The notes below the pieces were generated by a model. The model saw only the letters and a list, made by a program, of their open reading frames with translations. It made no database searches and was not told where the DNA came from. Position numbers and translations under genes: made by a program. Of a DNA stretch of 57,171 bases, positions 25,194-40,811 are shown one piece after another (the stretch's first letter is position 1; every line of letters starts with the position of its first letter). This stretch comes from an uncultured Clostridia bacterium (GTDB lineage: Bacteria > Bacillota_I > Bacilli_A > RF39 > UBA660): assembly GCA_947643225.1 (NCBI GenBank), contig CANRVH010000004.1, positions 1 to 57,171 of the forward strand. Direction: 5' to 3'.

Positions 25194-27341
25194 ATGAATG
25201 AAGTAATTGTACAAGAGATAGCGAATAACCTTAATATTACTAAAAACCAAGTAGAGGTAGTTTTGAAATTACTTAGTGAGGGAAATACGATTCCCTTTAT
25301 TGCTAGATATCGAAAAGAAGCAACAAAGGCATTAGATGAGGAACAGATTAGAAAGATAAATGAGGTTTATCTATATCAAGTAAATTTATTAAAAAGGAAA
25401 GAAGATGTCATTAGATTAATTGATGAAAAGGGACTTCTTACTGAAGAGTTAAGAACTTCTATTATGAAGTGTGAAAAACTAGTTGATGTAGAAGATTTGT
25501 ATCGTCCATATAAAGAAAAGAAAAAAACTAAAGCAACTGAAGCCATCAAGATGGGATTAGAAGATCTTGCTAAAATTATTATGTCATTTCCAATTAGAGG
25601 AACATTAGAAAGTATTAGTAGTAAATTTATTAATGAGCAAGTAAAAGATACAGAATTTGCTATAATTAATGCGGGATATATCATTAGTGAATGGATTAGT
25701 GATAATGCGAGTTATAGAAAATATATTAGAAATTTTATTAGTAGAAGTGGACAAATTACAAGCAAAATGAAAAAAAATGCTGAAGATTCTGATCAAGTAT
25801 ATGAAATGTATTATGAATTCACAGATTCAATAAAAAAAATCAAATCTTACCGTGTAATGGCCCTTGATCGAGGAGAAAAAGAAGGGATTCTTTCTATTAG
25901 TTTAACTTATGATAAAGATAGTATCATTAATTATTTAGAAAGTAAATTAATCAAAAATAAAGACTCTTTTGTAGTAGATGTGGTTAAAAATGCTATTGTA
26001 GATAGCTTAAAACGTTTAATTTTACCTAGTATAGAAAGGGAAATTAGAAGTGATTTGAAAGAAATAGCAGAAGAAGATTCTATTGTTAATTTTTCTAATA
26101 ATTTAGAAAAATTATTATTAACTCCACCGATGGCGGAAAAAACTGTTTTAGGATTAGATCCTGCTTTTCGTACAGGTTGTAAATTAGCAGTCCTTGATAA
26201 AACAGGAAAACCATTAGAAATAGCAGTTATTTATCCAACAGAACCCCATAATGATATTGAAAACTCTAAGAAGAAAGTTTTAGAACTAATTGAAAAATAT
26301 GATATTGATATTGTAGCAATTGGAAATGGAACAGCATCTAGAGAAAGTGAAAGTTTTATTGCTGATACCATTAAAGAGGCTAAAAGAAAAGTAGAATATA
26401 TTATTGTTAGTGAAGCGGGTGCAAGTGTTTATTCTGCGAGTGATCTAGCTATTCAGGAATTTCCTGATTTAACAGTTGAAAAAAGAAGTGCTATTAGTAT
26501 TGGTAGGCGTCTTCAGGATAGTTTAGCAGAACTTGTTAAAATAGAACCAAGAAGTATAGGAGTAGGACTATACCAACATGATGTTACTCCTAAAAAGTTA
26601 GATGAATCCTTAAATTTCGTTGTCAGCAAGGTAGTAAATGAAGTTGGAGTCAATATTAATACAGCAAGTCGTAGTTTACTTCATTATGTATCAGGACTCA
26701 CTAAGAAAACAATTGATGAAATTCTTGCAACTAGAGATAAAATCGGTAAATTTGTATCACGAGAAGATGTTCATAAGTTAAAGGGGATGACACCAAAAGT
26801 TTATGAACAGTCTATTGGTTTTATTCGTATATTAGAAGGGGATAATCCTTTAGATAAAACATCAATTCATCCTGAAAGTTATCCAGTTGCAATGAGACTT
26901 TTAGAAAAATTAAATTATACAGTTAACGATATAGGAAATACAGATTTAACTAAACAATTAGAAGAGCTTAGGCTAGATGAATTAACTGTTGAACTAGATA
27001 CAGATCATTATACATTAACAGATATTATTTCTTCTTTAAAAACTCCAGGAAGAGATCCTCGAAATGAAATGCCTAAACCAATTTTAAGAAGTGATATTCT
27101 TCATATTGAGGATTTACATATAGGAGATAAATTAGAAGGGGTAGTTCGTAATGTAGTAGACTTTGGTTTATTTATTGATATTGGACTAAAGAATGATGGA
27201 CTTGCTCATATATCAAAACTATCACATGAATTTATTAAAAATCCAAGAGAATTATTTAGTGTAGGGGATATTGTAACATGCTATGTAGATGAAATCTCTA
27301 TAGAAAAGAAAAAGGTTAGTTTAACCCTTTTAAATCATTAA
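25194..27341 (+). CDS. tex: Tex-family S1 RNA-binding transcription accessory protein
   Basis: 715 aa with TIPFIARYRKE, a YqgF-like core (LG.DPA.RTGCK.AV.D..G), HhH repeats and a C-terminal S1 domain (G.V..V..FG.F.DIG...DGL.HIS). Confidence 0.9.
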   Translation: MNEVIVQEIANNLNITKNQVEVVLKLLSEGNTIPFIARYRKEATKALDEEQIRKINEVYLYQVNLLKRKEDVIRLIDEKGLLTEELRTSIMKCEKLVDVEDLYRPYKEKKKTKATEAIKMGLEDLAKIIMSFPIRGTLESISSKFINEQVKDTEFAIINAGYIISEWISDNASYRKYIRNFISRSGQITSKMKKNAEDSDQVYEMYYEFTDSIKKIKSYRVMALDRGEKEGILSISLTYDKDSIINYLESKLIKNKDSFVVDVVKNAIVDSLKRLILPSIEREIRSDLKEIAEEDSIVNFSNNLEKLLLTPPMAEKTVLGLDPAFRTGCKLAVLDKTGKPLEIAVIYPTEPHNDIENSKKKVLELIEKYDIDIVAIGNGTASRESESFIADTIKEAKRKVEYIIVSEAGASVYSASDLAIQEFPDLTVEKRSAISIGRRLQDSLAELVKIEPRSIGVGLYQHDVTPKKLDESLNFVVSKVVNEVGVNINTASRSLLHYVSGLTKKTIDEILATRDKIGKFVSREDVHKLKGMTPKVYEQSIGFIRILEGDNPLDKTSIHPESYPVAMRLLEKLNYTVNDIGNTDLTKQLEELRLDELTVELDTDHYTLTDIISSLKTPGRDPRNEMPKPILRSDILHIEDLHIGDKLEGVVRNVVDFGLFIDIGLKNDGLAHISKLSHEFIKNPRELFSVGDIVTCYVDEISIEKKKVSLTLLNH

Positions 27342-27354
27342 TCTTAATATAGAA

Positions 27355-27384
27355 AAGTAAGATTTAAATAATCTTATTTTTTTG
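27355..27384 (+). terminator. Rho-independent terminator after tex
   Basis: AAGTAAGATT pairs with AATCTTATTT (10 bp, one G-U) around the loop TAAAT, followed by a T-run. Confidence 0.6.
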
Positions 27385-27421
27385 TTTTCTCTAATTTAGC
27401 AAATAATAGCGATGAATTATT

Positions 27422-28057
27422 TTAGTAAAGAATCGTAATCTTTTTATTGATATCTTGAATTAGGCTATCTTCTTTTAAGGCCTTTAATTCTCTCATCATG
27501 GCACTACGGTCGATTGCTAAATAATCGGCTAGATCAGTATAAGAATAACTTAAATTAAAAATTTTGGAATTGTTCTTTTTTGACTGTAATTCAAAGTAAG
27601 CTAGTAATTTACTTCGAATACTTCTAGTAGTAAGTAATTCAATTCTTTCATTTCTTTTAATTAGAGTTTTTGAAACAACTTGAAATAAATTATGGAGTAG
27701 CATAACAGCCGTTTGACTCGTTCTACATTTTTTTAATAACTCTTCATATTCAATAAAAGTGACTTTACAGTTAGTAGTTGCAATAACAGATAATTCACTA
27801 CTATTAGTAGAAATAAACATATCAGAAAAAATATCACCAGAAGATAGTTCATCGATAATGGTTCTGTCCCCATTATAATCAAATCGAATTAAATTGGCAT
27901 CACCGTTTTCCATAATGCCAATTAAATTTCTATTTCTAATAGAATAGGCAATCGTTTGACCAGATTTGTAAAAAAGTGTATTTGACTGTAAACTTGTTAA
28001 TAATTTTTGTAAACTTTTTGCTTCTATATTTTCATAAATTGTAGGTTTTATAAGCAT
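27422..28057 (-). CDS. Crp/Fnr-family transcriptional regulator
   Basis: 211 aa with an N-terminal cNMP-binding-like beta-roll and a C-terminal HTH (YSYTDLADYLAIDRSAMMRELKALKEDSLI). It is divergent from nrdD. Confidence 0.75.
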   Translation of the reverse strand: MLIKPTIYENIEAKSLQKLLTSLQSNTLFYKSGQTIAYSIRNRNLIGIMENGDANLIRFDYNGDRTIIDELSSGDIFSDMFISTNSSELSVIATTNCKVTFIEYEELLKKCRTSQTAVMLLHNLFQVVSKTLIKRNERIELLTTRSIRSKLLAYFELQSKKNNSKIFNLSYSYTDLADYLAIDRSAMMRELKALKEDSLIQDINKKITILY

Positions 28058-28099
28058 CTAAAAACTCTCCTTTTTTTTTAAAATATTATAATGTAAAAT

Positions 28100-28115
28100 T
28101 GTTGCATTTGCAACA
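28100..28115. promoter_or_regulatory. Perfect 7-2-7 palindrome TGTTGCA-TT-TGCAACA, candidate operator
   Basis: It lies 8 nt downstream of a TATAAT (28087-28092) and 58 nt upstream of the nrdD ATG, in the crp/fnr-nrdD divergent region. Confidence 0.4.
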
Positions 28116-28172
28116 GATTTTTTTAGAATAATATTTTATGATGTTTTTGTAACAGTAGAAGGAGATGTATTT

Positions 28173-30299
28173 ATGAAAGTAATTAAAAGAGATGGAAAAA
28201 GTGTTGACTATGATCGTGAGAAAGTAAGAATTGCTATTGGAAAGGCTAATATTTGTGTTCCAGAAAATGATAGAATAACAGATCGCCAAATAGAAAACAT
28301 TGTTAAATATATAGAGGGATTGAATAAAAGGAGAATGGTCGTAGAGGATATTCAAGATATTATTGAAGAAAAATTAATGTCTCTTAATAAGTTTGCTCTT
28401 GCTAAAGAGTATATTACTTATAGATATACAAGAGCTTTAGTTAGGAAGGCTAATACAACAGATGAATCGATACTAAGTTTAATTAAAAATGCCAATAAGG
28501 AATTGGCAGAAGAAAATTCTAATAAGAGTACTACTTTAGCATCAACTCAAAGGGATTATATAGCTGGGGAGGTATCAAGAGACTTAACCCGTAGAATTTT
28601 ACTTCCAGAAAAAATCAGTAAGGCACATGATGAAGGAGTATTACATTTTCATGATGCTGATTATTTTGTTCAACCAATATTTAATTGTTGTCTAATCAAT
28701 ATTGAAGATATGCTAGATAATGGTACAGTGATGAATGGTAAAATGATTGAATCGCCAAAGAGTTTTCAAGTAGCCTGTACAGTTACCACTCAAATTATTG
28801 CTGCTGTTGCTTCTAATCAGTATGGTGGCCAATCTGTTGATCTTTCCCATTTGGGCAAATTTATTAAGAAAAGTAAAGATAAATTTAAGAAACATATTAA
28901 AGCAAAATATGGAAAAAGTCTATCTAAAGAAGAAATTGAAAGCTTGGTTGCTGACCGAGTTAAAGATGAAGTAAGAGCAGGGGTGCAAACTATTCAATAT
29001 CAAATTAATACTTTGATGACAACTAATGGACAATCTCCTTTTGTAACTTTATTTATGTATTTAAAAGAAGATGACCCTTATATTGAAGAAAATGCAATGT
29101 TATTTGAAGAGGTTATTCGTCAAAGAGATGAAGGAATTAAAAATGAAAAGGGAGTATACATTACTCCAGCCTTTCCTAAACTAGTTTATGTTTTGGATGA
29201 AAATAATTGCTTAAAGGGTGGTAAGTATGACTATCTAACAAAACTTGCTGTAAAGTGTTCAAGCAAGAGAATGTATCCAGACTATATTAGTGCGAAAAAA
29301 ATGCGTGAAAATTATGAAGGGAATGTTTTCAGTCCTATGGGATGCAGAAGTTTCTTATCTCCTTTTAAGGATGAGAATGGTAAATATAAATTTGAAGGAA
29401 GATTTAATCAAGGAGTAGTATCTATTAATTTACCTCAGATTGGTATTGTAGCAGAGGGGAATGAGGAAACATTTTGGAAGGTATTTGATGAAAGATTAGA
29501 ACTTTGTTATGAAGCATTAATGTGTCGTCATGAAGCATTACTTGGAACAGTTAGTGATACTAGTCCAATTCATTGGCAATATGGTGCGATTGCTAGATTG
29601 AAAAAGGGAGAAAAGATTGATAAATATTTAAATAGTTGTTATTCAACTATTTCACTTGGCTATATTGGAATTTATGAACTTACAAAATTAATTAAAGGGG
29701 TAAGCCATACAGATCCTGAAGGTGAGCAATTTGCTCTTAAGGTAATGAATTATATGCGTGATAAATGTAATAAATGGAAAAAAGAAACAGGATTAGGTTT
29801 TGCCTTATATGGAACCCCAGCAGAAAGTTTATGTTATCGATTTGCACGAATTGATAAGGAAAGATTTGGCACGATTAAGGATGTAACAGATAAGGGATAT
29901 TATACTAACAGTTATCATGTAGATGTAAGACAAAAAATAGATGCTTTTACTAAGTTCAAATTTGAAAGTAAGTTCCAGCCAATTTCATCAGGTGGTTGTA
30001 TTTCTTACGTTGAAGTACCTAATATGAAACATAATTTAAAAGCCATGGAAGATGTTGTTAAATTTATTTATGACAATATTCAATATGCTGAATTTAATAC
30101 AAAATCTGATACCTGTCATAATTGTGGATACGTTGGAGAAATAGAAATTACTGATGACTTAGAATGGGTTTGTCCACAATGTGGAAATAAAGATAAAACT
30201 AAAATGAATGTTACTAGAAGAACATGTGGTTATCTAGGTGAGAATTTCTGGAATGTGGGAAAAACGAAAGAAATAAAATCTAGAGTAACTCACTTATAG
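28173..30299 (+). CDS. nrdD: Anaerobic ribonucleoside-triphosphate reductase
   Basis: N-terminal ATP-cone (VIKRDG..V.YD..K), a C-terminal Zn ribbon (CHNCG...CPQCG) and the glycyl-radical motif RRTCGYLG. Confidence 0.95.
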   Translation: MKVIKRDGKSVDYDREKVRIAIGKANICVPENDRITDRQIENIVKYIEGLNKRRMVVEDIQDIIEEKLMSLNKFALAKEYITYRYTRALVRKANTTDESILSLIKNANKELAEENSNKSTTLASTQRDYIAGEVSRDLTRRILLPEKISKAHDEGVLHFHDADYFVQPIFNCCLINIEDMLDNGTVMNGKMIESPKSFQVACTVTTQIIAAVASNQYGGQSVDLSHLGKFIKKSKDKFKKHIKAKYGKSLSKEEIESLVADRVKDEVRAGVQTIQYQINTLMTTNGQSPFVTLFMYLKEDDPYIEENAMLFEEVIRQRDEGIKNEKGVYITPAFPKLVYVLDENNCLKGGKYDYLTKLAVKCSSKRMYPDYISAKKMRENYEGNVFSPMGCRSFLSPFKDENGKYKFEGRFNQGVVSINLPQIGIVAEGNEETFWKVFDERLELCYEALMCRHEALLGTVSDTSPIHWQYGAIARLKKGEKIDKYLNSCYSTISLGYIGIYELTKLIKGVSHTDPEGEQFALKVMNYMRDKCNKWKKETGLGFALYGTPAESLCYRFARIDKERFGTIKDVTDKGYYTNSYHVDVRQKIDAFTKFKFESKFQPISSGGCISYVEVPNMKHNLKAMEDVVKFIYDNIQYAEFNTKSDTCHNCGYVGEIEITDDLEWVCPQCGNKDKTKMNVTRRTCGYLGENFWNVGKTKEIKSRVTHL

Positions 30300-30309
30300 G
30301 AGAAATGTT

Positions 30310-30861
30310 ATGCATTATGCCTCAATAAAAAAATATGATGTTGCTAATGGAGAGGGAATTAGAATATCTCTTTTCGTTAGTGGTTGTCCACATCATTGTA
30401 AAAATTGTTTTAATAAAGAAGCTTGGGATGAAAATTATGGCCAATTATTTACAAAAAAGGAAGAAGAAGAAATTCTAAATTTTCTAGGAGAAGACTATAT
30501 TGATGGATTATCTCTATTAGGAGGAGAACCAATGTGGCCTAAAAATCAAGAGGGATTATTACCTCTTCTTAGAAGGATAAAGGAAATGTATCCCAAAAAG
30601 ACTATATGGTGTTATACTGGATATTTATTTGATCAAGAGATTATGGATGAGATGTATTTATTAAATGAATTTACTAGAGAATTTTTATCTTATATTGATG
30701 TAATTGTAGATGGTAGATTTGTTGAGAAACTATTGGATAAATCTTTATTTTTTAGAGGAAGTTCTAATCAAAGAGTGATTGATGTAAAAAAGAGTCTAAA
30801 AAATAAAAAGGTAGTAGAGATAAAAATAAAGGGAGAAGGAGTTAAAGTACATGCGAAGTAG
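30310..30861 (+). CDS. nrdG: Anaerobic RNR activating protein (radical SAM)
   Basis: D.ANG.G.R.SLFVSGC.HHCKNCFN contains the CxxxCxxC cluster. It sits directly downstream of nrdD. Confidence 0.9.
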   Translation: MHYASIKKYDVANGEGIRISLFVSGCPHHCKNCFNKEAWDENYGQLFTKKEEEEILNFLGEDYIDGLSLLGGEPMWPKNQEGLLPLLRRIKEMYPKKTIWCYTGYLFDQEIMDEMYLLNEFTREFLSYIDVIVDGRFVEKLLDKSLFFRGSSNQRVIDVKKSLKNKKVVEIKIKGEGVKVHAK

Positions 30862-31303
30862 AGGATTTGAAGTGATAAAGGAATATCAAGATAAGGGGAT
30901 TAACTTACCTGTTAGGAAAACAAAATATTCAGCAGGATATGATGTGGAAGCAGCAGAAGATATTGTTATTCCATCTTTTAAAAAGGGAATAAAGCCAACA
31001 CTAATTCCAACAGGGTTAAAAGCTTATTGTATGGAAGATGAATATTATATGTTAGTAAATAGGAGTAGTGGACCAAAAAAGGGTTTAGTTATGGCTAATG
31101 GAATTGGAATCATTGATCATGATTATTATAATAATCAATCAAATGAGGGACATTTCTATTTTCAATATTTTAATATGAAAGATGAAGATGTTACTATTCA
31201 TAAGGGGGATATAATTGGTCAAGTTATTTTCCAAAAATATTTAATGGTTGATGGTGATCATGCCGAGGGTCAAAGAACAGGCGGATTTGGATCCACAGAT
31301 TAA
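30851..31303 (+). CDS. dut: dUTP diphosphatase
   Basis: SAGYD, NG.GIID.DY and C-terminal R.GGFGSTD motifs. The start overlaps the nrdG stop. Confidence 0.85.
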   Translation: MRSRGFEVIKEYQDKGINLPVRKTKYSAGYDVEAAEDIVIPSFKKGIKPTLIPTGLKAYCMEDEYYMLVNRSSGPKKGLVMANGIGIIDHDYYNNQSNEGHFYFQYFNMKDEDVTIHKGDIIGQVIFQKYLMVDGDHAEGQRTGGFGSTD

Positions 31304-31394
31304 TATTAGATCATATAATAAGAATGTTGATTAATTATCAGTCCATTTTTTTACAATATCTATATAACAGATTATTATGTGCTATTTATTATGG

Positions 31395-31426
31395 AATACC
31401 TCAAGTTAAGAAGGGGTATTTTTTTG
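31395..31426 (+). terminator. Rho-independent terminator after dut
   Basis: AATACCTC pairs with GGGGTATT (8 bp, one G-U) around a loop of about 9 nt, followed by T7. Confidence 0.7.
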
Positions 31427-31820
31427 TAATATATATTTAAAGAAGTGTGAGGATTTGTTTATCTCAAAAATGAAATAAATTCAAAGAATGTGTATGTATC
31501 TTCTAAAAGATTACAGGTAGTTAAAACATGATCTGATAATGGTATTTTTGTATGTATTATGATGAGTCCTGTTCTTCCATTTATTACTGATAATGAGGCC
31601 AATAGGAGAGATTATTATTTTTTAATATATTATTAAATGTTATTATATCCGTTTATATATATGTTTGCGTGCTTTTGTTTTTTGTAAGATATTCGTATAT
31701 GTTTTTAATTGATTAGTGGTATGATAGGTTAATATAACAAAGGTAAGAAGATACGACAAAAAGAACTATAAAATTGTAAATTAAAGAGTTATAATAATAA
31801 AAGATATGAGGTGATATAAA

Positions 31821-32738
31821 ATGAGAATAATATTTAAAAAGAATTTTAATATATTAATAGGAATTATAATAATTGTAATACTATTGTGTGGAGGAGTATA
31901 TGCGGCAACAACAATTGCGGGAAATAGTATTACATATTCTAATACTAAGTCAGGTCTAAAATCTACTAATGTTCAAGGAGCAATTGATGAATTATATGAA
32001 ACTGCCAAATCACATTGTCCAGATGGTCATATTTGTTCATCACTTGTAAGGATAAAAGATAAAAACTCTAATATAGTAAAAGCTTATTTATATGACGAGG
32101 AAAATAGTAATAGTAAATGTATAATAGGTGATGAGTCAACTTGTAAAGAAACAACCTGTATAAATTATTCAAATCAGAATTATTGTCCATCAGGAACGAT
32201 CATTAAATATAAAGTGAACAGTTCAACAATAAAAACATTTTATGTTATATTTGATGAAGGAAAAACAATGACTATGATTGATCAGGAAGATACAGTTAAG
32301 GGTATTTCATGGAATGCCACATCTGATATTACAAAAGGCCCAATTACAGCATTAGTATCTTTAGAAAATATCACAAAAGGATGGACCAATGTTAATAATC
32401 AAACTTATACCTTAGGTAAAACTTCTTTATCTTTAGAGGGAGCTTATACAGGATGTAGTACAGCAAGTTCGTGTACAACTAATATCTATACTTTATCAGA
32501 ACGAACAGCAAAAGCAAGATTAATTACAATACAAGAGGCGTATGCGTTAGGGTGTACAGTATCACATAATTCATGTCCAAAATGGATTGTTCTTGGTAGT
32601 TCTCATTGGACATCTTCTGTTTATGTTTCAAGTCCCAATTCCGCTTATTATATTAATCATTCTGCTTTCTCAAATGTTTATTATACAAATGTTGATAATG
32701 AGATAACTGCACATGCTGTTGTTGTAGTTTCAAAATAG
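31821..32738 (+). CDS. Secreted/anchored protein with a Cys-rich lectin-like (DUF1566/Lcl-C-like) C-domain, paralog of 17010-17684
   Basis: GAGGTGA SD. The anchor ends in LLCGGVYAATT, followed by an ITYSN..SGL.STNVQGAIDELY stalk motif. The C-terminal 225 aa align colinearly with the 16512 gene, including 8 conserved Cys and the identical string YTLSERTAKARL. Confidence 0.55.
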   Translation: MRIIFKKNFNILIGIIIIVILLCGGVYAATTIAGNSITYSNTKSGLKSTNVQGAIDELYETAKSHCPDGHICSSLVRIKDKNSNIVKAYLYDEENSNSKCIIGDESTCKETTCINYSNQNYCPSGTIIKYKVNSSTIKTFYVIFDEGKTMTMIDQEDTVKGISWNATSDITKGPITALVSLENITKGWTNVNNQTYTLGKTSLSLEGAYTGCSTASSCTTNIYTLSERTAKARLITIQEAYALGCTVSHNSCPKWIVLGSSHWTSSVYVSSPNSAYYINHSAFSNVYYTNVDNEITAHAVVVVSK

Positions 32739-35339: not shown

Positions 35340-35409
35340 GTATAAAAATAATAATTTACAAAATGGAATAAATATGTTATAATATACTGCTGAAAGGGGA
35401 GAAATAGTG

Positions 35410-37035
35410 ATGAATATTAAGAAAATAATTAGTGAATTAAGAATATATCGATTTGTAAATAGATGTAAAAAGGATAGACTAAATTATGAGATATACTTTC
35501 CTAAATTCTGTAATATGGAAAAATTTCCTAGGTTGATTAGAAAAATAAATCGTCTGAGTTCTGCAGAAAAGGAGTATGTGTTATCTCCAATAAAATCAAT
35601 GAAATATGGTTTGAATATAGATGAAGTATATATGATTATGAAAAATCAATTAGATATTGTAAGGAAAAGGCATGAGCATAATATTGTTGATTTATCAAAG
35701 TTATATTTATCAACTGCTCGTATTTCTAAATCTGTCTATAAAGAATTGGTTAATAGCTATATATATAATAAACCCATAGGAGAATATCGAGCAAAGCACT
35801 ATATTGATATTTTTATGGAAAAACCATTTGATTTCAATTTTAGTAAACCAGGATGTAGTTCGATTTCAATTGATGGTTTAGCACCAGATAAGTTAAGACA
35901 AGCTCTAAAACATAATCAATATGGTTCCAAATTTTTATCTGTTTATCATCGTTTATCTCAAGAGGAAAAACAAAGTTTGAATAATATGGATGAGGAGCAA
36001 TTTCAAAAAGTTTTAGATTTCCTTTTTGTTAATCATGATTTAGAAGATGATTGTAATTATAATTTTCAGAGTAGAAAAAAATTGTTAATAGGATGTGGTG
36101 ATATTTCTAAAAAAATTGATTCACTTAGACTGCTTCCTGATTATTTAATAGATTATCTTAGTTTTGATTGTAATCATACTTCAAAGAAAAATTTTTATCA
36201 TCATATTAATTTTAATTCAGTAAATTGGCTAAAAGAGTTATCTGCTACCTCAGAGGTTCAAGCAACCAATATTAAAAATTTAATTAAAAAGGGAAAGATA
36301 TTTAATCTTCCTTGCGAAAATATTCAAGAAATATTTAAAAATGTTCGAAAAAGTGGAATAAAAGATGAAACAAATACAACTAGATATAGAGCTAAAATGA
36401 AATTTTTAATCGATGATCAAGGTGGCTTTGCTTTTGATATAAGAAATATAACTCTTCTAAAACATACTTTAAATTTTATTTGTCAAAATGATAGTGAACT
36501 AGTATTAAATCAAAAATTTAATGTTTTAAATGCATTACGTGAGGAATTGAAAAATAATCAAATAGATGAGCAATTATATAGTGAATACTTATCGTTTTTA
36601 AATGAGGGATTAGAAAGAAAGACAGAAAAAGAAAAGGTTAGACAGATAAGAGCACGTAGTAAATATTTCGAAGATCATACTCTTTCAGATTTTGCGGAAC
36701 AATTACAAGATAAACCACAACAAGAAAAATTAAAAGAACTTTTCCATCAAAATCAAAAACCAAAGAGGATGGTACAAAATTATAGATTTGCTTTAATGAC
36801 TAATGATTATCAATCGGAAGTGGTTGATATGATAATAAATATGCTTTCTGAAATAGAAGATGTAAATTATTCAAAAATGCTTTTATCTTATATTAAATCT
36901 GAACAATTTAGAAATCTGGGTATAGAAAAACAGAAGAAACACTTAACAGTACTAATTGATATGCTGAAAGAGGAAAATAAGAATATCAACAATATAAAAT
37001 CTAATTCGTTAGAAAAGAAAAAACAGGTGGCATAA
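35410..37035 (+). CDS. Hypothetical cytoplasmic protein (541 aa, K/N/E-rich), no recognisable domain
   Basis: Long uninterrupted ORF with GGGGAG SD, no TM segment or signal, and terminators on both sides. Confidence 0.6.
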   Translation: MNIKKIISELRIYRFVNRCKKDRLNYEIYFPKFCNMEKFPRLIRKINRLSSAEKEYVLSPIKSMKYGLNIDEVYMIMKNQLDIVRKRHEHNIVDLSKLYLSTARISKSVYKELVNSYIYNKPIGEYRAKHYIDIFMEKPFDFNFSKPGCSSISIDGLAPDKLRQALKHNQYGSKFLSVYHRLSQEEKQSLNNMDEEQFQKVLDFLFVNHDLEDDCNYNFQSRKKLLIGCGDISKKIDSLRLLPDYLIDYLSFDCNHTSKKNFYHHINFNSVNWLKELSATSEVQATNIKNLIKKGKIFNLPCENIQEIFKNVRKSGIKDETNTTRYRAKMKFLIDDQGGFAFDIRNITLLKHTLNFICQNDSELVLNQKFNVLNALREELKNNQIDEQLYSEYLSFLNEGLERKTEKEKVRQIRARSKYFEDHTLSDFAEQLQDKPQQEKLKELFHQNQKPKRMVQNYRFALMTNDYQSEVVDMIINMLSEIEDVNYSKMLLSYIKSEQFRNLGIEKQKKHLTVLIDMLKEENKNINNIKSNSLEKKKQVA

Positions 37036-37039
37036 AAAT

Positions 37040-37064
37040 AACATCTCTTTAGTTGAGATGTTTT
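37040..37064 (+). terminator. Rho-independent terminator
   Basis: AACATCTC pairs with GAGATGTT (8 bp) around a 7-nt loop, followed by TT(A)T. The track start of the next ORF (37053) lies inside this hairpin. Confidence 0.6.
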
Positions 37065-37160
37065 ATGATGGCAGAAATAAATATAAGTCAAAATGGTCAT
37101 CTTTTTCTCTTTTGTTCCCTTTTAATATGTGATATGATATATATAATAATGGAGACTGAT

Positions 37161-40100
37161 ATGATGAAAAAGTTGAATGATAGAGCATTTACAATGATAG
37201 AGTTAATTGCGGCAATTACCATTATGGCATTATTGATGCTTATTATTATTCCTAATATTTTTGGTATTGTTGAAAAAAATAAAAAAACAACTTATTTAAA
37301 TGATGCTAAACAACTTATTACTATGGCTAAAAATCAATATGAGGCAGATCCTACAATTACTGAGCCAACTGATTCATTATGTTTAGTATTTAGACTTAAG
37401 GATTTAAGAAAATCGGGTCTTGAGAAAGGTCCAAATGGTGGAAAATATAATGGCACCTATTCTTATGTTACAATTAATTATGAATCTGGTAAATATATTT
37501 ATGGTGTTCAACTTCTTGAGGAGTATTCAACGAGAGGGAAAAGTAATTATCGAGGTATTGCTTATACTAAACAGGCTGATTTACAAAAAAGTAATATTGA
37601 AAAAAATACCAATTCTATGGAAAATTATACAGATCTAAGCTCTTTATCTGTTTCAAGTTCTTGCCCAAATGGGTTAGTTTTTTCTGATGGTAGTATTGGT
37701 AATAAAGATAATCTAGATAGTGAGATAAAAGAGGGAGATGTATTAACAGTAAATTATAGAATAGGATCTAATGTGGAAGAAATTGGTTCTGAGGTAGCAA
37801 CTTGTACTGTACCAGAATCAAAAAAGTATTGTATAGTTACATTACCTTCTATTAAGGCAAAAGATGGATATAATAGTGTAGGTTGGTCAAGATCAAAGGG
37901 TGCACGATCAGGAGATAAACAATCGATATATTTAACCAAAATAAGTAGTGTGTATTATGCTAATGCTATTGATGATATTGCTCCAGCTATCAATCTTTCT
38001 AAGCAAGAAGATCAACTATATACTAAGGAAAAAGCAATAGATGTTGATTTAGTTGATTTAGGAGTTGGGTTAGATCAAGATATCGTTGTAAAATATGGTT
38101 GGTCTTTATCTAATAATGTAGAACCTGGAAATTATATCGAGGTTAAGCCAGATTACCAAAAAGGAAGTAAGAAAGTGACTTTTCAAGCAGAGGGAAATAA
38201 TTTGAATGGTGATTATTATTTATGGGTTGAACCAATTAATTTGCAGGATATAGAGGGAAATGAAAATAAGAAGAAAATTATATCTGAAGGTGTGTTTAAA
38301 TATAATATTACTCGTCCAGCTTGTCGTTTTACTAATATTAACTCTACGATAGTGGGGGATCAAGAAACAATATTGTTAACTTGTACAGATGATGAAACCA
38401 GTGTAATTAGTCAAAACCTTACTATTGATGATTTTTCTGTATCATCGGATAATGGCAAAATAGTATCTGTAAGTGATGCAAGAGAAGTAGCGAATGGATA
38501 TGAGTATCAGGTTACTGTTGAGGGAGTGGGAACAGGTGGTTTTTCTGTCGTTTTTTCTAAAGATAAAATTCAAAACGGCGCAGGTAATATGAATGAGGAA
38601 ACATCTAGTCCAGAAATAGTTGTTAATGGGAAGGTTTATCATGTTCAATATATATTAGGAGATAATATGTCTAATATAGATGATGGTGAGGAAAATTGTA
38701 CAACGACAGGTAAAAGTTTAGAATGTGAAATAATGCTACCAACAATTAAGGCAAACGATGGATATACTGCAGATGGATGGTATTATAATAATACTAAGAT
38801 TGGGGAAAATGGCCAGTATATAATTAGTGGAGATATTCAATTAAATGCAAAAGTTAAACCACGTGTATATACTGTGATTTATGATTATGAAACAAATGGT
38901 GGGACTTCTGTAGCAATTACTCCAAATTCAGGAATTACTGAGATTAAGGAATTAGAGCGAATTGGAGAATTTGCTTATACAGGAGATCAGATTATAAAAA
39001 AAGAAGAGAAAAGAATTGAGGCAATTAAAAACAATTGGGAGTTTGTAGGCTGGAATACTGATCCTGATGAGGTGATAGCATTAGATGAGTATTACATAAC
39101 AAATAAGTTATCCCAAGATGTGGATCAAATTACTCTTTATGCAATTTTTAGAAGGAGAAAAACTGCTAAGGTCTATTATTATAATCCAGAAGAAAGAGAC
39201 TCATTTGAAGAAGTTAGTTGTTATATATACAATAATGCTCCAGATGAAGATGTTTGTAATTTTACTATACCAGATAAAGTAGAAAAGAGTGCACCAGAAG
39301 GATTTAATTATGTTGGATTATTATCTAATTGTTTAGAAGATTGGACAATAGATTCACAAATGACAGATCAATCTGAAGATAGGATAGAATATACTAGTGA
39401 AAATCCAGTTTATTATGCGGTTTATCATAATAGTTATGTAGTTAACTATATTAAAGAAGATACTATAGATAATATTATAGATACTATCCAAGATGAAGGT
39501 GATGAGGAGCCTGATACTGGTGAAGATTCTGGAACTGATGAGAAAGATGATACTAACAAGGGACCAGAAACTAGTGAGGAGTCCGATATTAATGGGGGAT
39601 CTGGAACTGGTGAGACGCCTGATATTAGTGGAGGAACGGATACTAATACTGATGAGGGAGTTGATACCGATGGGGATAATAATGAAGATACAAAAAATAA
39701 TATCATTCAAATTTTATTTGATGCTTATTTATATCATAGAACGGGTTATGATACATCATACAATATTAAATTGCCAAAACTAACACCACGTCGTGGATAT
39801 ACTAATACTAAATGGACAGAGATTTTAGATAGCGAGGGAACGAAGGGGAATATTTTTGCACCAGAACAAGTTTATACATTAACAAGTAGTACAACAACCT
39901 TTTCTGCAAGTGCCGAGGATATTGAAAAACCAACATGGTCAATAGTAAGTGCTGAAAAAGACTGTAATGATTTAAAAATTACTATACAAGGCTCGGATAC
40001 TTCTGGACAGACTATAAGTAGTTTAAAACTTGATAAGCTCTCAATAAAAATTGGTGGAAAAGAAAATAGTCAAGGATTAAATACAACATTATCTGAAATT

Positions 40101-40667
40101 CCATCAGAGTCATCAGAGTTTATAGGAGGAACAGTACAACATGTTTTAACAATTAAGAATTATAATCAACAAGGAGAGATTAATATTACTATATCAGAAT
40201 CTACCTTAAGAGATGGTGCTGGAAATACCAATGTTACCACTTCATTAATTTATCCTGAAACAGGAATTTATGATGTTTGTGAACCAGATGAACCAACATG
40301 GACAATAATAAGGGTTGAAGAGGATTGTGATAGTTTAAGAATTATTTTACAAGGTACTAGTCCATCTGGTAAAGTAGAGAGTAATTTAAAATTGGAAAAT
40401 TTAGTAATTGAGCTTGGAAATGAAAATATTTCTGAATCTACAACAGTAGAAAAAGTTCTATCTAAAGTTTCATCAGAGTCATCAGAATTCATTCAAGGTT
40501 CAGTTCAATATATTTTAACATTGAAGGGTTACAATCAAATAGGAGATGTAAAGATTAATATCTCAGCAGCTACCTTAGAAGATGAAGCAGGGAATATGAA
40601 TCAGGCTGTCTTATCTAGTTATCCTAAGGAAGAAATTTATCATATCTGTCAATCTACAACTTCATAG
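37161..40667 (+). CDS. Giant modular type IV pilin-like (class III signal) surface protein
   Basis: GGAG lies at 37151-37154, then ATG 37161. The N-terminus MMKKLNDRA/FTMIELIAAITIMALLMLIIIPNI has a short basic leader, Ala at -1, Phe+1, Glu+5 and a hydrophobic helix of about 20 aa, very like ComGC/pseudopilins. About 1130 aa follow. They contain several Listeria-Bacteroides (Flg_new)-type repeats (..LP.IKA.DGY...GW), Ig-like modules ending in x-(A/E)-G-N-x-N, and an acidic D/E/T/G linker at 39480-39700. Confidence 0.7.
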   Translation: MMKKLNDRAFTMIELIAAITIMALLMLIIIPNIFGIVEKNKKTTYLNDAKQLITMAKNQYEADPTITEPTDSLCLVFRLKDLRKSGLEKGPNGGKYNGTYSYVTINYESGKYIYGVQLLEEYSTRGKSNYRGIAYTKQADLQKSNIEKNTNSMENYTDLSSLSVSSSCPNGLVFSDGSIGNKDNLDSEIKEGDVLTVNYRIGSNVEEIGSEVATCTVPESKKYCIVTLPSIKAKDGYNSVGWSRSKGARSGDKQSIYLTKISSVYYANAIDDIAPAINLSKQEDQLYTKEKAIDVDLVDLGVGLDQDIVVKYGWSLSNNVEPGNYIEVKPDYQKGSKKVTFQAEGNNLNGDYYLWVEPINLQDIEGNENKKKIISEGVFKYNITRPACRFTNINSTIVGDQETILLTCTDDETSVISQNLTIDDFSVSSDNGKIVSVSDAREVANGYEYQVTVEGVGTGGFSVVFSKDKIQNGAGNMNEETSSPEIVVNGKVYHVQYILGDNMSNIDDGEENCTTTGKSLECEIMLPTIKANDGYTADGWYYNNTKIGENGQYIISGDIQLNAKVKPRVYTVIYDYETNGGTSVAITPNSGITEIKELERIGEFAYTGDQIIKKEEKRIEAIKNNWEFVGWNTDPDEVIALDEYYITNKLSQDVDQITLYAIFRRRKTAKVYYYNPEERDSFEEVSCYIYNNAPDEDVCNFTIPDKVEKSAPEGFNYVGLLSNCLEDWTIDSQMTDQSEDRIEYTSENPVYYAVYHNSYVVNYIKEDTIDNIIDTIQDEGDEEPDTGEDSGTDEKDDTNKGPETSEESDINGGSGTGETPDISGGTDTNTDEGVDTDGDNNEDTKNNIIQILFDAYLYHRTGYDTSYNIKLPKLTPRRGYTNTKWTEILDSEGTKGNIFAPEQVYTLTSSTTTFSASAEDIEKPTWSIVSAEKDCNDLKITIQGSDTSGQTISSLKLDKLSIKIGGKENSQGLNTTLSEIPSESSEFIGGTVQHVLTIKNYNQQGEINITISESTLRDGAGNTNVTTSLIYPETGIYDVCEPDEPTWTIIRVEEDCDSLRIILQGTSPSGKVESNLKLENLVIELGNENISESTTVEKVLSKVSSESSEFIQGSVQYILTLKGYNQIGDVKINISAATLEDEAGNMNQAVLSSYPKEEIYHICQSTTS
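39930..40664 (+). repeat. Tandem duplication of a 121-aa (363-nt) Ig-like module at the pilin C-terminus
   Basis: PTWSIVSAEKDCNDLKITIQG...SESSEFIGGTVQHVLTIKNYNQQGEINITISESTLRDGAGNTN begins at 39930. PTWTIIRVEEDCDSLRIILQG...SESSEFIQGSVQYILTLKGYNQIGDVKINISAATLEDEAGNMN begins at 40293. Confidence 0.85.
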
Positions 40668-40699: not shown

Positions 40700-40740
40700 A
40701 AGATAAGATATATTTATATTATTCTTATCTTTTTCTTTTA
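40700..40740 (+). terminator. Probable terminator after the pilin-like gene
   Basis: AAGATAAG (40700-40707) pairs with CTTATCTT (40724-40731) around a 16-nt loop, followed by TTTCTTTT. Confidence 0.5.
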
Positions 40741-40811
40741 TTAAAAAATTAAGTCTTTAAAAAAGATTAAAATACATGTTATAATTAAGATAGAATGAGG
40801 TGTAAAGATAT

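What the first reader, a model, noticed from the sequence alone, without database searches (positions are those of the whole stretch)
37161..40667. Orphan 1168-aa modular type IV pilin-like protein between ftsZ and ftsK
Seen in sequence: MMKKLNDRA/FTMIELIAAITIMALLMLIIIPNI is a textbook class III (prepilin) signal, with a basic leader, Phe+1, Glu+5 and a hydrophobic alpha-1 helix. The exception is Ala instead of the near-invariant Gly at -1.

It is followed by more than 1100 aa of adhesin-type modules: Flg_new/Listeria-Bacteroides-like repeats, at least 4 Ig-like modules and an acidic linker.

Established knowledge: pilins and pseudopilins are normally 100-200 aa. The modular pilins described in Streptococcus sanguinis carry a single extra module and sit in pil operons.

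Here the gene is monocistronic, with terminators on both sides. No pilB/pilC/pilD or comG genes occur in 57 kb.

Inference: it is either a giant tip-located pilin displayed by machinery encoded elsewhere, or a protein that uses the pilin helix simply as a membrane anchor.
Basis: partly seen in the sequence, partly recalled or inferred. Interest (0 to 1): 0.8.

Follow-up and report, generated by a model that had tools for sequence, protein, structure and literature searches.

The report
Giant modular type IV pilin adhesin
This gene encodes a very large surface protein whose first ~180 residues are a genuine type IV pilin module carrying about ten Ig-like/Flg_new-like modules, one member of a sizeable, undescribed family in uncultured gut Bacilli where pilus genes are routinely scattered around the chromosome.

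Summary
Window 37161-40667 (+) encodes a 1168-aa protein with a class III (prepilin) signal that passes the curated PF07963 and TIGR02532 cut-offs. A ~170-aa pilin head follows, then about ten beta-modules and a 70-aa acidic linker. No pilB/C/D gene lies in the 57 kb.

It is not an orphan. The pilin module defines a large family (834 representatives at E<=1e-10). Of the best 150, 33 are giants of 850-1700 aa and 105 are ordinary pilins under 300 aa. F+1 and E+5 are nearly invariant. Ala at -1 is a tolerated minority variant.

A standalone 177-aa pilin, 64% identical, occupies the same ftsZ-[X]-ftsK slot in a relative.

In related gut MAGs, pilC-pilD form a two-gene unit far from most pilin genes. 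Several MAGs or contigs hold both pilC-pilD and giants with this head. One relative (L166) has pilC-pilD-pilB, murG-ftsZ and an ftsZ-adjacent modular pilin within 14 kb.

Best reading: a modular minor pilin displayed by dispersed type IV pilus machinery. This is a large new member of a known kind (Raynaud et al. 2021). The window's own genome could not be checked for machinery.

The parts
37040..37062 (+). Hairpin just after the stop of the upstream 542-aa ORF. It is a possible weak or bidirectional terminator.
   Evidence: Stem AACATCTC/GAGATGTT, dG -12.1 kcal/mol, z -3.0. The scan calls it a terminator only on the - strand. The T-tail on the + strand is weak.
37122..37154 (+). Promoter-like TTAATA-17-AATAAT (37122-37150) and GGAG ribosome-binding site (37151-37154), 6 nt upstream of the ATG.
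   Evidence: (9 of 12 matches) and direct reading of the sequence. These are consensus matches only.
37161..40667 (+). CDS of the 1168-aa modular prepilin-type protein, stop codon included.
37161..37187 (+). Leader peptide MMKKLNDRA (aa 1-9). The predicted prepilin-peptidase cleavage is after Ala9.
   Evidence: PF07963 and TIGR02532 pass their cut-offs. Residue 1 of solved mature pilins aligns to F10. The family -1 residue is Gly in 137 and Ala in 10 of 150.
37188..37346 (+). Alpha-1 helix (aa 10-62) with F+1, E+5, Pro+22 and a hydrophobic alpha-1N. This is the only hydrophobic segment in the protein.
   Evidence: AF2 helix 7-62 or 12-62. Invariant F10, E14 and P31. Hydrophobic 19-mers start only at residues 9-19.
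37347..37694 (+). Globular pilin head (aa 63-178): a 4-stranded antiparallel sheet, with invariant Cys74 and Cys168.
   Evidence: AF2 core pLDDT 84-90. hhalign against a standalone 180-aa pilin gives 99.9%, E 3e-33.
37728..39479 (+). Six to seven beta-modules (aa 190-773). Flg_new-like modules are at ~190-270 and 486-567, Ig-like modules at 275-385 and 386-485, and further modules at 569-673 and 681-773.
   Evidence: AF2 secondary structure and pLDDT. Sub-threshold Flg_new at aa 522-564. Repeat 192-242 ~ 490-540. Foldseek hits only multi-beta-sandwich proteins.
39483..39698 (+). Disordered acidic D/T/G/E-rich linker (aa 775-846). It is hypervariable between homologues.
   Evidence: pLDDT ~27-30. 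Composition. Identity to homologues is 6-33%.
39702..40652 (+). Distal modules (aa 848-1164): one Flg_new-like module, then a tandem duplication of a ~120-aa Ig-like module (922-1041 ~ 1043-1164).
40700..40743 (+). AT-rich hairpin followed by TTTTCTTTTATT. It is a plausible intrinsic terminator for a ~27-30% GC genome.
   Evidence: dG -7.9, z -2.0. Sequence read. It fails the scan's requirement for 3 or more G-C pairs.

Best explanation
The gene encodes a modular minor type IV pilin that works as a filament-borne adhesin.

Shown:
- The N-terminal 178 aa are a complete, conserved type IV pilin module: leader, F+1/E+5/P+22 alpha-1 helix and beta-sheet head.
- The module is homologous to standalone pilins.
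- It is followed by ~1000 aa of beta-sandwich and Flg_new-like modules with a flexible acidic linker.
- There is no other anchor.

Inferred:
- After Sec-dependent membrane insertion, a PilD-type prepilin peptidase removes MMKKLNDRA and methylates Phe1.
- The pilin module is then loaded by a PilC platform and PilB ATPase encoded elsewhere in the chromosome.
- The ~1000-aa cargo cannot pack into the filament body. The protein is therefore incorporated rarely, most likely at the tip as a priming subunit.
- The fast-evolving distal modules then project beyond the thick Gram-positive wall and bind host, mucus or other cell-surface ligands.
- The ftsZ/ftsK location reflects inheritance of an old pilin slot, not a role in cell division.
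For: Pilin module:
- Curated class III models pass.
- The AF2 model has a long helix packed on a 4-stranded sheet, with core pLDDT 84-90.
- hhalign against a standalone 180-aa pilin in the same MAG contig as homologue P0008 gives 99.9%, E 3e-33, covering helix and head.
- A standalone 177-aa pilin, 64% identical, sits in the same ftsA-ftsZ-[X]-ftsK-M16 slot.

Family:
- 834 representatives at E<=1e-10. Of the best 150, 33 are 850 aa or longer.
- In those 150, F+1 is present in 144, E+5 in 147, and -1 is Gly in 137 or Ala in 10.
- A charged Glu conserved inside the only hydrophobic segment fits pilin biology better than a simple anchor.

Conservation gradient:
- The pilin module is the most conserved part in every homologue, and the linker is the least conserved.
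- All 17 differences from the 99%-identical strain protein P0001 lie after residue 291. My own calculation gives p~0.008 for this under uniform substitution.

No other anchor: there is no LPXTG motif and no second hydrophobic segment.

Machinery in relatives:
- pilC-pilD units were found in 78 of 79 and 102 of 119 loci from gut Bacilli MAGs.
- Modular pilins of 498-768 aa with this head domain lie 6-7 kb from pilC-pilD in L138, L157, L160, L164, L170, L175 and L183.
- MAG RUG12568 has a 1318-aa giant with this head (L027) and pilC-pilD (L239). MAG CAKPMY01 has a window-type pilin (L028) and pilC-pilD (L301).
- L092 reads trmK-T2SSF-A24 peptidase-dnaB-dnaI-871-aa class III ORF.
- L166 reads pilC-pilD-pilB-...-murG-murB-ftsQ-ftsA-ftsZ-[342-aa modular pilin]. 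Its FtsZ is 67-72% identical to the window's.

Literature:
- Modular pilins are an established class and are predicted to be tip-located (PMC8179133).
- Cleavage after Ala, and pilin genes lying away from the machinery, are both accepted (PMC3244431).
Against: - No prepilin peptidase, ATPase or platform gene could be shown for the window's own genome, or for the five MAGs that carry window-type giants (CAOJDX01, CAKPLP01, CATJZL01, CATKYP01, CAJTKB01).
- Foldseek of the pilin-module model against the PDB gave no significant hit. The best E was about 1, with pilins among the top hits only at TM <=0.40.
- PDB sequence-profile hits cover only alpha-1.
- The T2SSE ATPase lies next to pilC-pilD in only 13 of 79 and 11 of 119 loci. 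A complete assembly system is therefore documented for only some relatives.
- The L166 ftsZ-adjacent pilin shares only alpha-1 with the window's module.
- Tip location, processing and adhesion are all inference.
Confidence: 0.6

Rival explanations
1. Pilin-anchored surface protein or pseudopilus stub. The class III signal is processed by PilD, but the protein is not carried on a long retractile pilus. It stays as a membrane-anchored monomer, or caps a very short wall-spanning pseudopilus. The pilin module then acts as a general display platform that replaces sortase anchoring.
For: - The genes are dispersed and usually far from any ATPase (T2SSE adjacent in 13 of 79 and 11 of 119 loci).
- Giants are numerous and come in tandem sets: five ~685-aa genes in L061 and two giants each in L026 and L027.
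- Arrays of up to 11 small pilins occur. This suggests a display repertoire more than one dedicated pilus.
- The same Ig-like module is also carried by a protein with a different N-terminal signal type (P0012).
- There is no LPXTG motif.
Against: - E+5, P+22 and the whole head domain are conserved as in polymerising pilins.
- Homologous standalone pilins exist, which only make sense as filament subunits.
- Complete pilB-pilC-pilD sets exist in relatives.
Confidence: 0.25
2. Unprocessed signal-anchor. Because of Ala at -1 the leader is not cleaved, and the N-terminal helix serves only as a type II membrane anchor for an adhesin.
For: - Ala replaces the more common Gly at -1.
- No peptidase has been shown in this genome.
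Against: - Ala at -1 is an accepted cleavage residue (PMC3244431).
- Close homologues alternate between Gly and Ala with the rest of the motif unchanged.
- The charged E+5 and the pilin head are conserved, which a plain anchor would not require.
Confidence: 0.07
3. Cell-division or sporulation-linked envelope protein. The conserved position between ftsZ and ftsK would reflect a functional link with the divisome or forespore engulfment, not with adhesion.
For: - The ftsA-ftsZ-[X]-ftsK-M16 slot is kept in 6 of 7 distinct family loci, although the pilin diverges to 35-66% identity.
- The lineage encodes sporulation genes, CotE and SpoIIGA-SigE.
- L166 also has a pilin directly after ftsZ.
Against: - Homologue P0008 lies elsewhere, between yqeH and dnaG.
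- The gene has its own RBS, a promoter-like site and flanking hairpins.
- Its modules are adhesin-type and evolve much faster than the neighbouring genes. FtsZ and FtsK best-HSP identities are 77-93%.
- L166 suggests the adjacency is a remnant of a larger pilus-gene region.
Confidence: 0.05

Closest known systems
Modular type IV pilins PilB (vWA module) and PilC (lectin module) of Streptococcus sanguinis (Raynaud et al. 2021, PMC8179133; PMC9934059)
   Same: Both come from monoderm bacteria. An N-terminal class III signal and a small pilin module are linked to non-pilus 'effector' modules with a presumed adhesive role. Tip display is predicted.
   Different: - The S. sanguinis proteins carry one extra module, are roughly 450 aa or less, and are encoded inside the pil operon.
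- This protein carries about ten modules in 1168 aa and has a 70-aa acidic linker.
- Its gene sits among cell-division genes with no machinery within 57 kb.
- There is no sequence similarity beyond alpha-1.
Multi-domain modular pilins in the InterPro survey of Raynaud et al. 2021 (264 architectures; the extreme case is an 860-aa Candidatus Falkowbacteria protein with 12 repeats)
   Same: The same design principle: IPR012902 at the N-terminus followed by several non-T4P domains.
   Different: - This family reaches 1000-1700 aa.
- Most of its modules are invisible to Pfam. Only 6 of 32 giants show Flg_new.
- It therefore falls in the 'underestimated' fraction that paper predicted.
CofB/TcpB-type large minor pilins of type IVb pili (ETEC, Vibrio cholerae), as discussed in PMC8179133
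   Same: A pilin module followed, through a flexible linker, by beta-repeat and beta-sandwich domains. They are thought to sit at the pilus tip and to prime assembly (plus my own knowledge for the priming role).
   Different: - They belong to diderm T4b systems, are ~500 aa, and are encoded in the pilus operon.
- No homology was detected here.
Com pseudopilins ComGC/ComGE of Bacilli
   Same: They give the best NCBIfam hits for the N-terminal ~60 aa. The same clade of bacteria encodes comG or pil-type genes near efp.
   Different: - Scores are far below the cut-offs: ComGE 26.4 against 49, and ComGC 22.3 against 75.
- Com pilins are ~100 aa with a different head.
- This protein is not a member.
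PilY1/PilC tip adhesins of diderm type IV pili
   Same: A large, modular adhesin presented at the pilus tip, built from a 'carrier' and 'effector' modules.
   Different: PilY1 is not a pilin. It docks through a beta-propeller onto minor pilins. In this protein the carrier is the pilin module itself.
Sortase-anchored (LPXTG) multi-Ig adhesins and Listeria internalin B-repeat (Flg_new) proteins of Gram-positive bacteria
   Same: Strings of Ig-like and Flg_new modules with acidic or flexible spacers, typical of surface adhesins.
   Different: - There is no Sec type I signal, no LPXTG and no C-terminal anchor.
- Attachment is through an N-terminal pilin module instead.

Membership tests
Type IV pilins / class III signal peptide proteins (PF07963, TIGR02532, IPR012902) | Match to the curated N-terminal cleavage/methylation models above their cut-offs | tested here: met
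   PF07963 scores 22.5 bits (cut-off 21.2). TIGR02532 scores 20.3 bits (cut-off 16.3). All 32 other giants tested also match PF07963.
Type IV pilins / class III signal peptide proteins (PF07963, TIGR02532, IPR012902) | Short basic leader ending in Gly or Ala, a hydrophobic residue at +1 (usually Phe), and Glu at +5 | tested here: met
   MMKKLNDRA|FTMIE. In 150 family representatives F+1 occurs in 144, E+5 in 147, and -1 is Gly in 137 or Ala in 10. Cleavage after Gly or Ala is accepted (PMC3244431).
Type IV pilins / class III signal peptide proteins (PF07963, TIGR02532, IPR012902) | About 50-residue alpha-1 helix with a hydrophobic N-terminal half, packed on a globular beta-sheet head | tested here: inconclusive
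   AF2 gives a helix at 7-62 and a 4-stranded sheet with core pLDDT 84-90, and P+22 is invariant. Foldseek against the PDB found no significant match: best E ~1, PAK pilin TMt 0.40. Homology to standalone pilins over helix and head is strong.
Type IV pilins / class III signal peptide proteins (PF07963, TIGR02532, IPR012902) | Cognate prepilin peptidase (A24) in the same genome, with actual cleavage and N-methylation | not testable with these tools
   The window's genome is not in the searchable collections. None was found in the 57 kb. Related MAGs encode A24 peptidases. Processing needs experiments.
Type IV pilins / class III signal peptide proteins (PF07963, TIGR02532, IPR012902) | Assembly ATPase (T2SSE) and platform protein (T2SSF) in the same genome, with incorporation into a filament | not testable with these tools
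   Absent from the window. Present in relatives: L166 has pilC-pilD-pilB, L260 has pilC-pilD-T2SSE, and L051 has T2SSE. They were not retrieved for the five MAGs with window-type giants, but the scans were truncated.
Modular pilins (sensu Raynaud et al. 2021) | An N-terminal pilin module followed by one or more modules that are not specific to type IV pilus biology | tested here: met
   The pilin module is aa 1-178. About ten beta-sandwich and Flg_new-like modules and a linker follow. A standalone orthologue-like pilin without cargo sits in the same slot.
Modular pilins (sensu Raynaud et al. 2021) | Presentation by the filament (tip exposure) and a direct role of the extra module in a pilus function | not testable with these tools
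   Inference only. Supported indirectly by faster evolution of the distal modules.
Com pseudopilins (ComGC, ComGE, ComGF; NCBIfam equivalogs) | Score above the equivalog cut-off | tested here: not met
   ComGE scores 26.4 against 49, ComGC 22.3 against 75, and ComGF 17.4 against 80. Only the N-terminal ~60 aa align.
T2SS major pseudopilin GspG | Score above the TIGR01710 cut-off | tested here: not met
   19.8 bits against 88.85.
Sortase-anchored LPXTG surface proteins | C-terminal LPXTG-type sorting signal with a hydrophobic tail | tested here: not met
   No [LIS]PX[TSA][GANS] motif and no hydrophobic segment outside residues 9-37. The C-terminus is ...IYHICQSTTS.
Flg_new / Listeria-Bacteroides repeat proteins (PF09479) | Pfam gathering threshold reached | tested here: inconclusive
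   The window protein scores 21.1 bits against 27, in one stretch at aa 522-564. Homologues P0003-P0010 and 6 of 32 other giants pass.

The most novel reading that the evidence does not exclude
In a large clade of uncultured low-GC gut and rumen Bacilli (labelled Bacilli, Erysipelotrichaceae or 'Tenericutes' in the MAG records), the type IV pilin module has become a general display platform.

- It carries a rapidly diversifying repertoire of giant adhesins, up to ~1700 aa, sometimes in tandem sets.
- The adhesins would be mounted on filaments or short wall-spanning pseudopili built by a dispersed pilC-pilD / pilB system.
- In effect this would take over the role that sortase-anchored adhesins play in other Gram-positive bacteria.
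- The ftsZ-adjacent and trmK-adjacent pilin slots would be relics of an ancestral dnaG-sigA-trmK-pilCDB-murG-ftsAZ-pilin super-locus, which is still intact in L166.
Probability: 0.3. Interest if true: 0.7.

Novelty: new member of a known kind. Interest (0 to 1): 0.5.

Why it matters
If the reading is right, some of the least-known human and animal gut bacteria (uncultured low-GC Bacilli) present their main adhesins on type IV filaments and not through sortase.

- The cargo sizes, 1000-1700 aa, exceed the 860-aa maximum noted in the 2021 survey of modular pilins.
- This raises a mechanical question: how does a type IV assembly machine handle a ~125-kDa cargo and pass it through a thick cell wall?
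- It also gives a defined set of fast-evolving surface proteins as candidates for host or mucus attachment in these lineages.

Practically, the case shows that pilin genes in these genomes cannot be found by looking in operons, and that most of their cargo domains are missing from domain databases.

Tried and rejected
Approaches that led nowhere:
1. An exact-sequence look-up of the window protein found nothing on record.
2. A single-sequence genome scan matched 74 stretches but no relative. The window's species is therefore not in the reference set.
3. Foldseek of the pilin-module model against the PDB gave no significant hit. I do not count it as a fold confirmation.
4. Contexts of small-pilin homologues (P0013, P0014, P0028, P0034, P0035, P0043) and of L010 were searched for adjacent machinery. 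None lay within 10 kb.
5. L011, a Lachnospiraceae pil operon, was too distant to act as a lineage probe. It served only as a phmmer seed.
6. The PilD pattern scan and the PilC-motif DNA scan did not return the five MAGs with window-type giants. These are non-results, not absences.
7. The final PilD profile search gave 4,234 hits. None shared a contig length with a giant-carrying contig.

Ideas considered and rejected:
- The L166 ftsZ-adjacent pilin as a strict orthologue. It is rejected because only alpha-1 aligns.
- SipW/TasA-type signals on neighbouring ORFs. NCBIfam gave no support.
- Membership of the ComG or GspG families. The scores are far below the cut-offs.

Full report
OBSERVATION

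The ORF is real. The longest reading frame runs from TTG 37053 to the stop at 40667. Homologue N-termini and a GGAG ribosome-binding site 6 nt upstream support the ATG at 37161, which gives 1168 aa. The N-terminus, MMKKLNDRA|FTMIELIAAITIMALLMLIIIPNIF, matches the curated class III models above their cut-offs: PF07963 scores 22.5 against 21.2 bits and TIGR02532 scores 20.3 against 16.3 bits. It is the only such motif in the six reading frames of the 57-kb window.

Pfam annotation of every ORF of 100 aa or more found no T2SSE, T2SSF, A24 peptidase or ComG gene. The gene order is murG-murB-ftsQ ... ftsA-ftsZ-[542-aa unknown]-[this gene]-ftsK-PNP-M16-M16.

The claim of 'terminators on both sides' is only partly borne out. 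A hairpin lies on each side (dG -12.1 at 37040-37062, and dG -7.9 at 40700-40731 followed by TTTTCTTTTATT). Neither passes the consensus terminator scan on the + strand.

ANATOMY

An alignment of the first ~178 aa with nine homologues shows these invariant positions: F+1, E+5, Pro+22, two cysteines (C74, C168) and several head-domain motifs (GPNxGxY, SYVT, YGVQL, RGIxY).

AlphaFold2 on this alignment gives a 56-residue helix packed on a four-stranded antiparallel sheet, with core pLDDT 84-90. That is a pilin-like topology. Foldseek against the PDB found no significant match, however (best E ~1; pilins and pseudopilins among the top hits only at TM <=0.40). I therefore rate the fold test as inconclusive. 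PDB sequence-profile hits (Geopilin, PilA, PilE1, GspG) cover only alpha-1 and place mature residue 1 at F10.

The full-length model (pLDDT 73) shows the following:
- six to seven beta-modules at aa 190-773;
- a disordered D/T/G/E-rich linker at aa 775-846;
- three more modules at aa 848-1164, the last two being a tandem duplication.

Foldseek with the full-length model returns only multi-beta-sandwich proteins: alpha-2-macroglobulin, Ig-receptor ectodomains and the SbsC S-layer protein. Flg_new is below threshold in this protein (21.1 against 27 bits) but passes in homologues. There is no LPXTG motif, and the only hydrophobic segment is alpha-1N.

THE N-TERMINUS IS A BONA FIDE PILIN MODULE

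- A standalone 180-aa prepilin, on the same MAG contig as homologue P0008, aligns to the module over helix and head (hhalign 99.9%, E 3e-33, 40% identity).
- A profile search found 37 standalone pilins of 112-285 aa that share the module.
- The closest of these, P0013 (177 aa, 64% identical), occupies the same ftsA-ftsZ-[X]-ftsK-M16 slot as the giant gene.
- Six of seven distinct loci that carry window-type giants keep that slot (FtsZ and FtsK best-HSP identities 77-93%), while the giants themselves are only 35-66% identical. P0008 sits elsewhere.

The giant therefore looks like an old resident pilin gene that accreted cargo modules.

THE FAMILY IS LARGE

An exhaustive HMM search of 1.84 billion representatives found 13,729 hits at E<=1e-3, 834 at E<=1e-10 and 53 at E<=1e-30. 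Of the best 150, 33 are 850-1699 aa, 12 are 300-849 aa and 105 are under 300 aa.

In these 150 proteins F+1 occurs in 144 and E+5 in 147. The -1 residue is Gly in 137 and Ala in 10. Ala at -1 is thus a minority variant, concentrated in the window's subfamily, where close homologues switch between Gly and Ala. It is an accepted cleavage residue (PMC3244431).

All 32 other giants tested carry PF07963. Only 6 show Flg_new, and most of the cargo is unannotated.

The pilin module is always the most conserved part and the linker the least. All 17 differences between the window protein and the 99%-identical strain protein P0001 lie after residue 291. That is the pattern expected for a conserved assembly module carrying diversifying display modules.

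WHERE IS THE MACHINERY?

The window's species is absent from the searchable collections, so its genome could not be examined. In relatives the picture is consistent.

Pilin genes sit among housekeeping genes. Two slots recur: after ftsZ, and in the dnaG-sigA-trmK ... GHL10-[1-11 pilins]-AP endonuclease-PBP(-L33-efp) region. In Erysipelotrichales the comG operon is reported to lie next to efp (PMC12786226).

Reference-genome scans returned mostly uncultured gut and rumen 'Bacilli', 'Erysipelotrichaceae' and 'Tenericutes' MAGs.
- In these, pilC-pilD is a tight two-gene unit (78 of 79 and 102 of 119 loci).
- The T2SSE ATPase is adjacent in only 13 of 79 and 11 of 119 loci.
- A PilC motif, AYEM[LI][VL]TGE, is specific to the clade (78 of 79 ingroup against 0 of 6 outgroup).

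Co-occurrence with the window-type head domain is documented in three ways.
- On one contig: modular pilins of 498-768 aa with this head lie 6-7 kb downstream of pilC-pilD in L138, L157, L160, L164, L170, L175 and L183. L092 reads trmK-T2SSF-A24 peptidase-dnaB-dnaI-[871-aa class III ORF].
- In one MAG: RUG12568 has a 1318-aa giant with this head (L027) and pilC-pilD (L239). Hadza MAG CAKPMY01 has a window-type pilin and an 817-aa class III ORF (L028) and pilC-pilD (L301); its SigA is 88-93% identical to those of window-family loci. CALVJD01 has a 693-aa class III ORF (L085) and pilC-pilD-T2SSE (L260).
- In one region: L166 carries pilC-pilD-pilB(-)-[530-aa class III ORF]-murG-murB-ftsQ-ftsA-ftsZ-[342-aa modular class III protein] within ~14 kb. 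Three ORFs just upstream are of the sizes expected for dnaG, sigA and trmK, but I did not verify them. L166's FtsZ is 67-72% identical to the window's. Its ftsZ-adjacent pilin shares only alpha-1 with the window's module, so it is a positional analogue. The locus still shows that both 'orphan' slots flank a complete pilus gene set in a relative.

The five MAGs with window-type giants were not retrieved by my PilD or PilC scans. A final PilD profile search gave 4,234 clusters and no usable link. This remains untested, not negative.

INTERPRETATION

The best-supported reading (about 0.6) is a modular minor type IV pilin. It would be cleaved and N-methylated by a PilD-type peptidase and loaded through its pilin module by dispersed PilC/PilB machinery. 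Because the ~1000-aa cargo cannot pack in the filament body, it would be incorporated rarely, most likely at the tip. The distal Ig-like modules would then project beyond the wall as an adhesin.

Rivals:
- a processed but non-polymerised, pilin-anchored surface protein, or a cap on a short pseudopilus (0.25);
- an unprocessed signal-anchor (0.07);
- a division or sporulation-linked role suggested by the synteny (0.05).

Processing, polymerisation, tip location and ligand binding are all inferred.

COMPARISON WITH WHAT IS KNOWN, AND NOVELTY

The design is that of the modular pilins defined by Raynaud et al. 2021 (PMC8179133). They catalogued more than 1,200 such proteins in 264 architectures, including multi-domain ones up to 860 aa. 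They predicted tip exposure and noted that the class is underestimated because many modules lack database signatures.

This protein meets the sequence-level definition. It fails the ComG and GspG equivalog cut-offs and has no sortase signal. It differs from the characterised S. sanguinis PilB and PilC in size, module number and genomic isolation.

I file it as a new, very large member of a known kind. The family-level picture is, as far as my literature searches show, not described. That picture comprises giants making up about a fifth of the closest representatives, tandem sets of giants, dispersed machinery and a relic super-locus. It is the more interesting part.

Noticed in passing
window 16512-17684, 19019-19591, 19638-20219, 24365-24976, 31821-32738 (all +): Unannotated ORFs with an N-terminal membrane anchor that ends in G-x-[STV]-Y-A-[LTA]-[FIT]-[TS]-like motifs (ITYALFT, SYALFT, SYATISF, VYAATT). 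From memory these resemble SipW/TasA-type signals, but NCBIfam gave no support. ORFs 16512 and 31821 share a Cys-rich C-terminal domain (…AKARL[LI]T[LI]QEA…YWTSS…). That domain resembles the C-termini of giant-pilin homologues P0004, P0009 and P0010 and of the L166 ftsZ-adjacent pilin.
   Followed up: partly
window 35407-37035 (+): A 542-aa ORF with no Pfam or NCBIfam hit is inserted between ftsZ and the pilin gene. It is present in the 99%-identical strain (L016, 539 aa) but absent from the same slot in L012, L014 and L017.
   Followed up: partly
L020:9431-16478 and L021:6443-13472: Eleven tandem prepilin genes (187-227 aa) lie between a GHL10 glycosidase-like gene and an AP endonuclease gene. 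No machinery lies within 10 kb. Several of the genes share the window-type head domain.
   Followed up: partly
L061:1252-12037; L026:9986-17761; L027:4423-13954: Tandem sets of giant class III genes. L061 (Hadza Bacilli MAG) has five consecutive ~685-aa genes. L026 and L027 each have two giants of 1013-1397 aa side by side.
   Followed up: no
L166:7258-20697: A relic 'super-locus' in Bacillota MAG SIG208: pilC-pilD-pilB(-)-173 aa-[530-aa class III ORF with a Gly-rich C-terminus]-murG-murB-ftsQ-ftsA-ftsZ-[342-aa modular pilin]. It links the two pilin slots seen in the window's lineage.
   Followed up: partly
L106-L303 (e.g. L092:4655-6889): pilC-pilD is a conserved two-gene unit in gut low-GC Bacilli MAGs, often directly after dnaG-sigA-trmK. 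The PilC motif AYEM[LI][VL]TGE is clade-specific (78 of 79 against 0 of 6). The matching prepilin-peptidase clade has more than 4,200 database clusters.
   Followed up: yes
window 22960-32738: Compared with relatives L017 and L166, where ftsQ is directly followed by ftsA, the window has a ~10-kb insertion between ftsQ and ftsA. It carries two unknown ORFs, tex, a crp-family regulator, nrdD-nrdG, dut and a 305-aa surface-protein-like ORF.
   Followed up: no
L044, L056, L060, L067/L139, L087, L094 and others: Several contigs whose records are titled 'uncultured Muribaculaceae' (Bacteroidota) carry low-GC Bacilli-type pilin and pilC-pilD loci. The bins are probably mislabelled or contaminated.
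   Followed up: no
L092:12252-12761 and L166:12748-14340: Glycine-rich domains (Pfam ALK_LTK_GRD, 79 bits, in L092) occur next to, or fused to, class III proteins in two loci. Their function is unknown.
   Followed up: no
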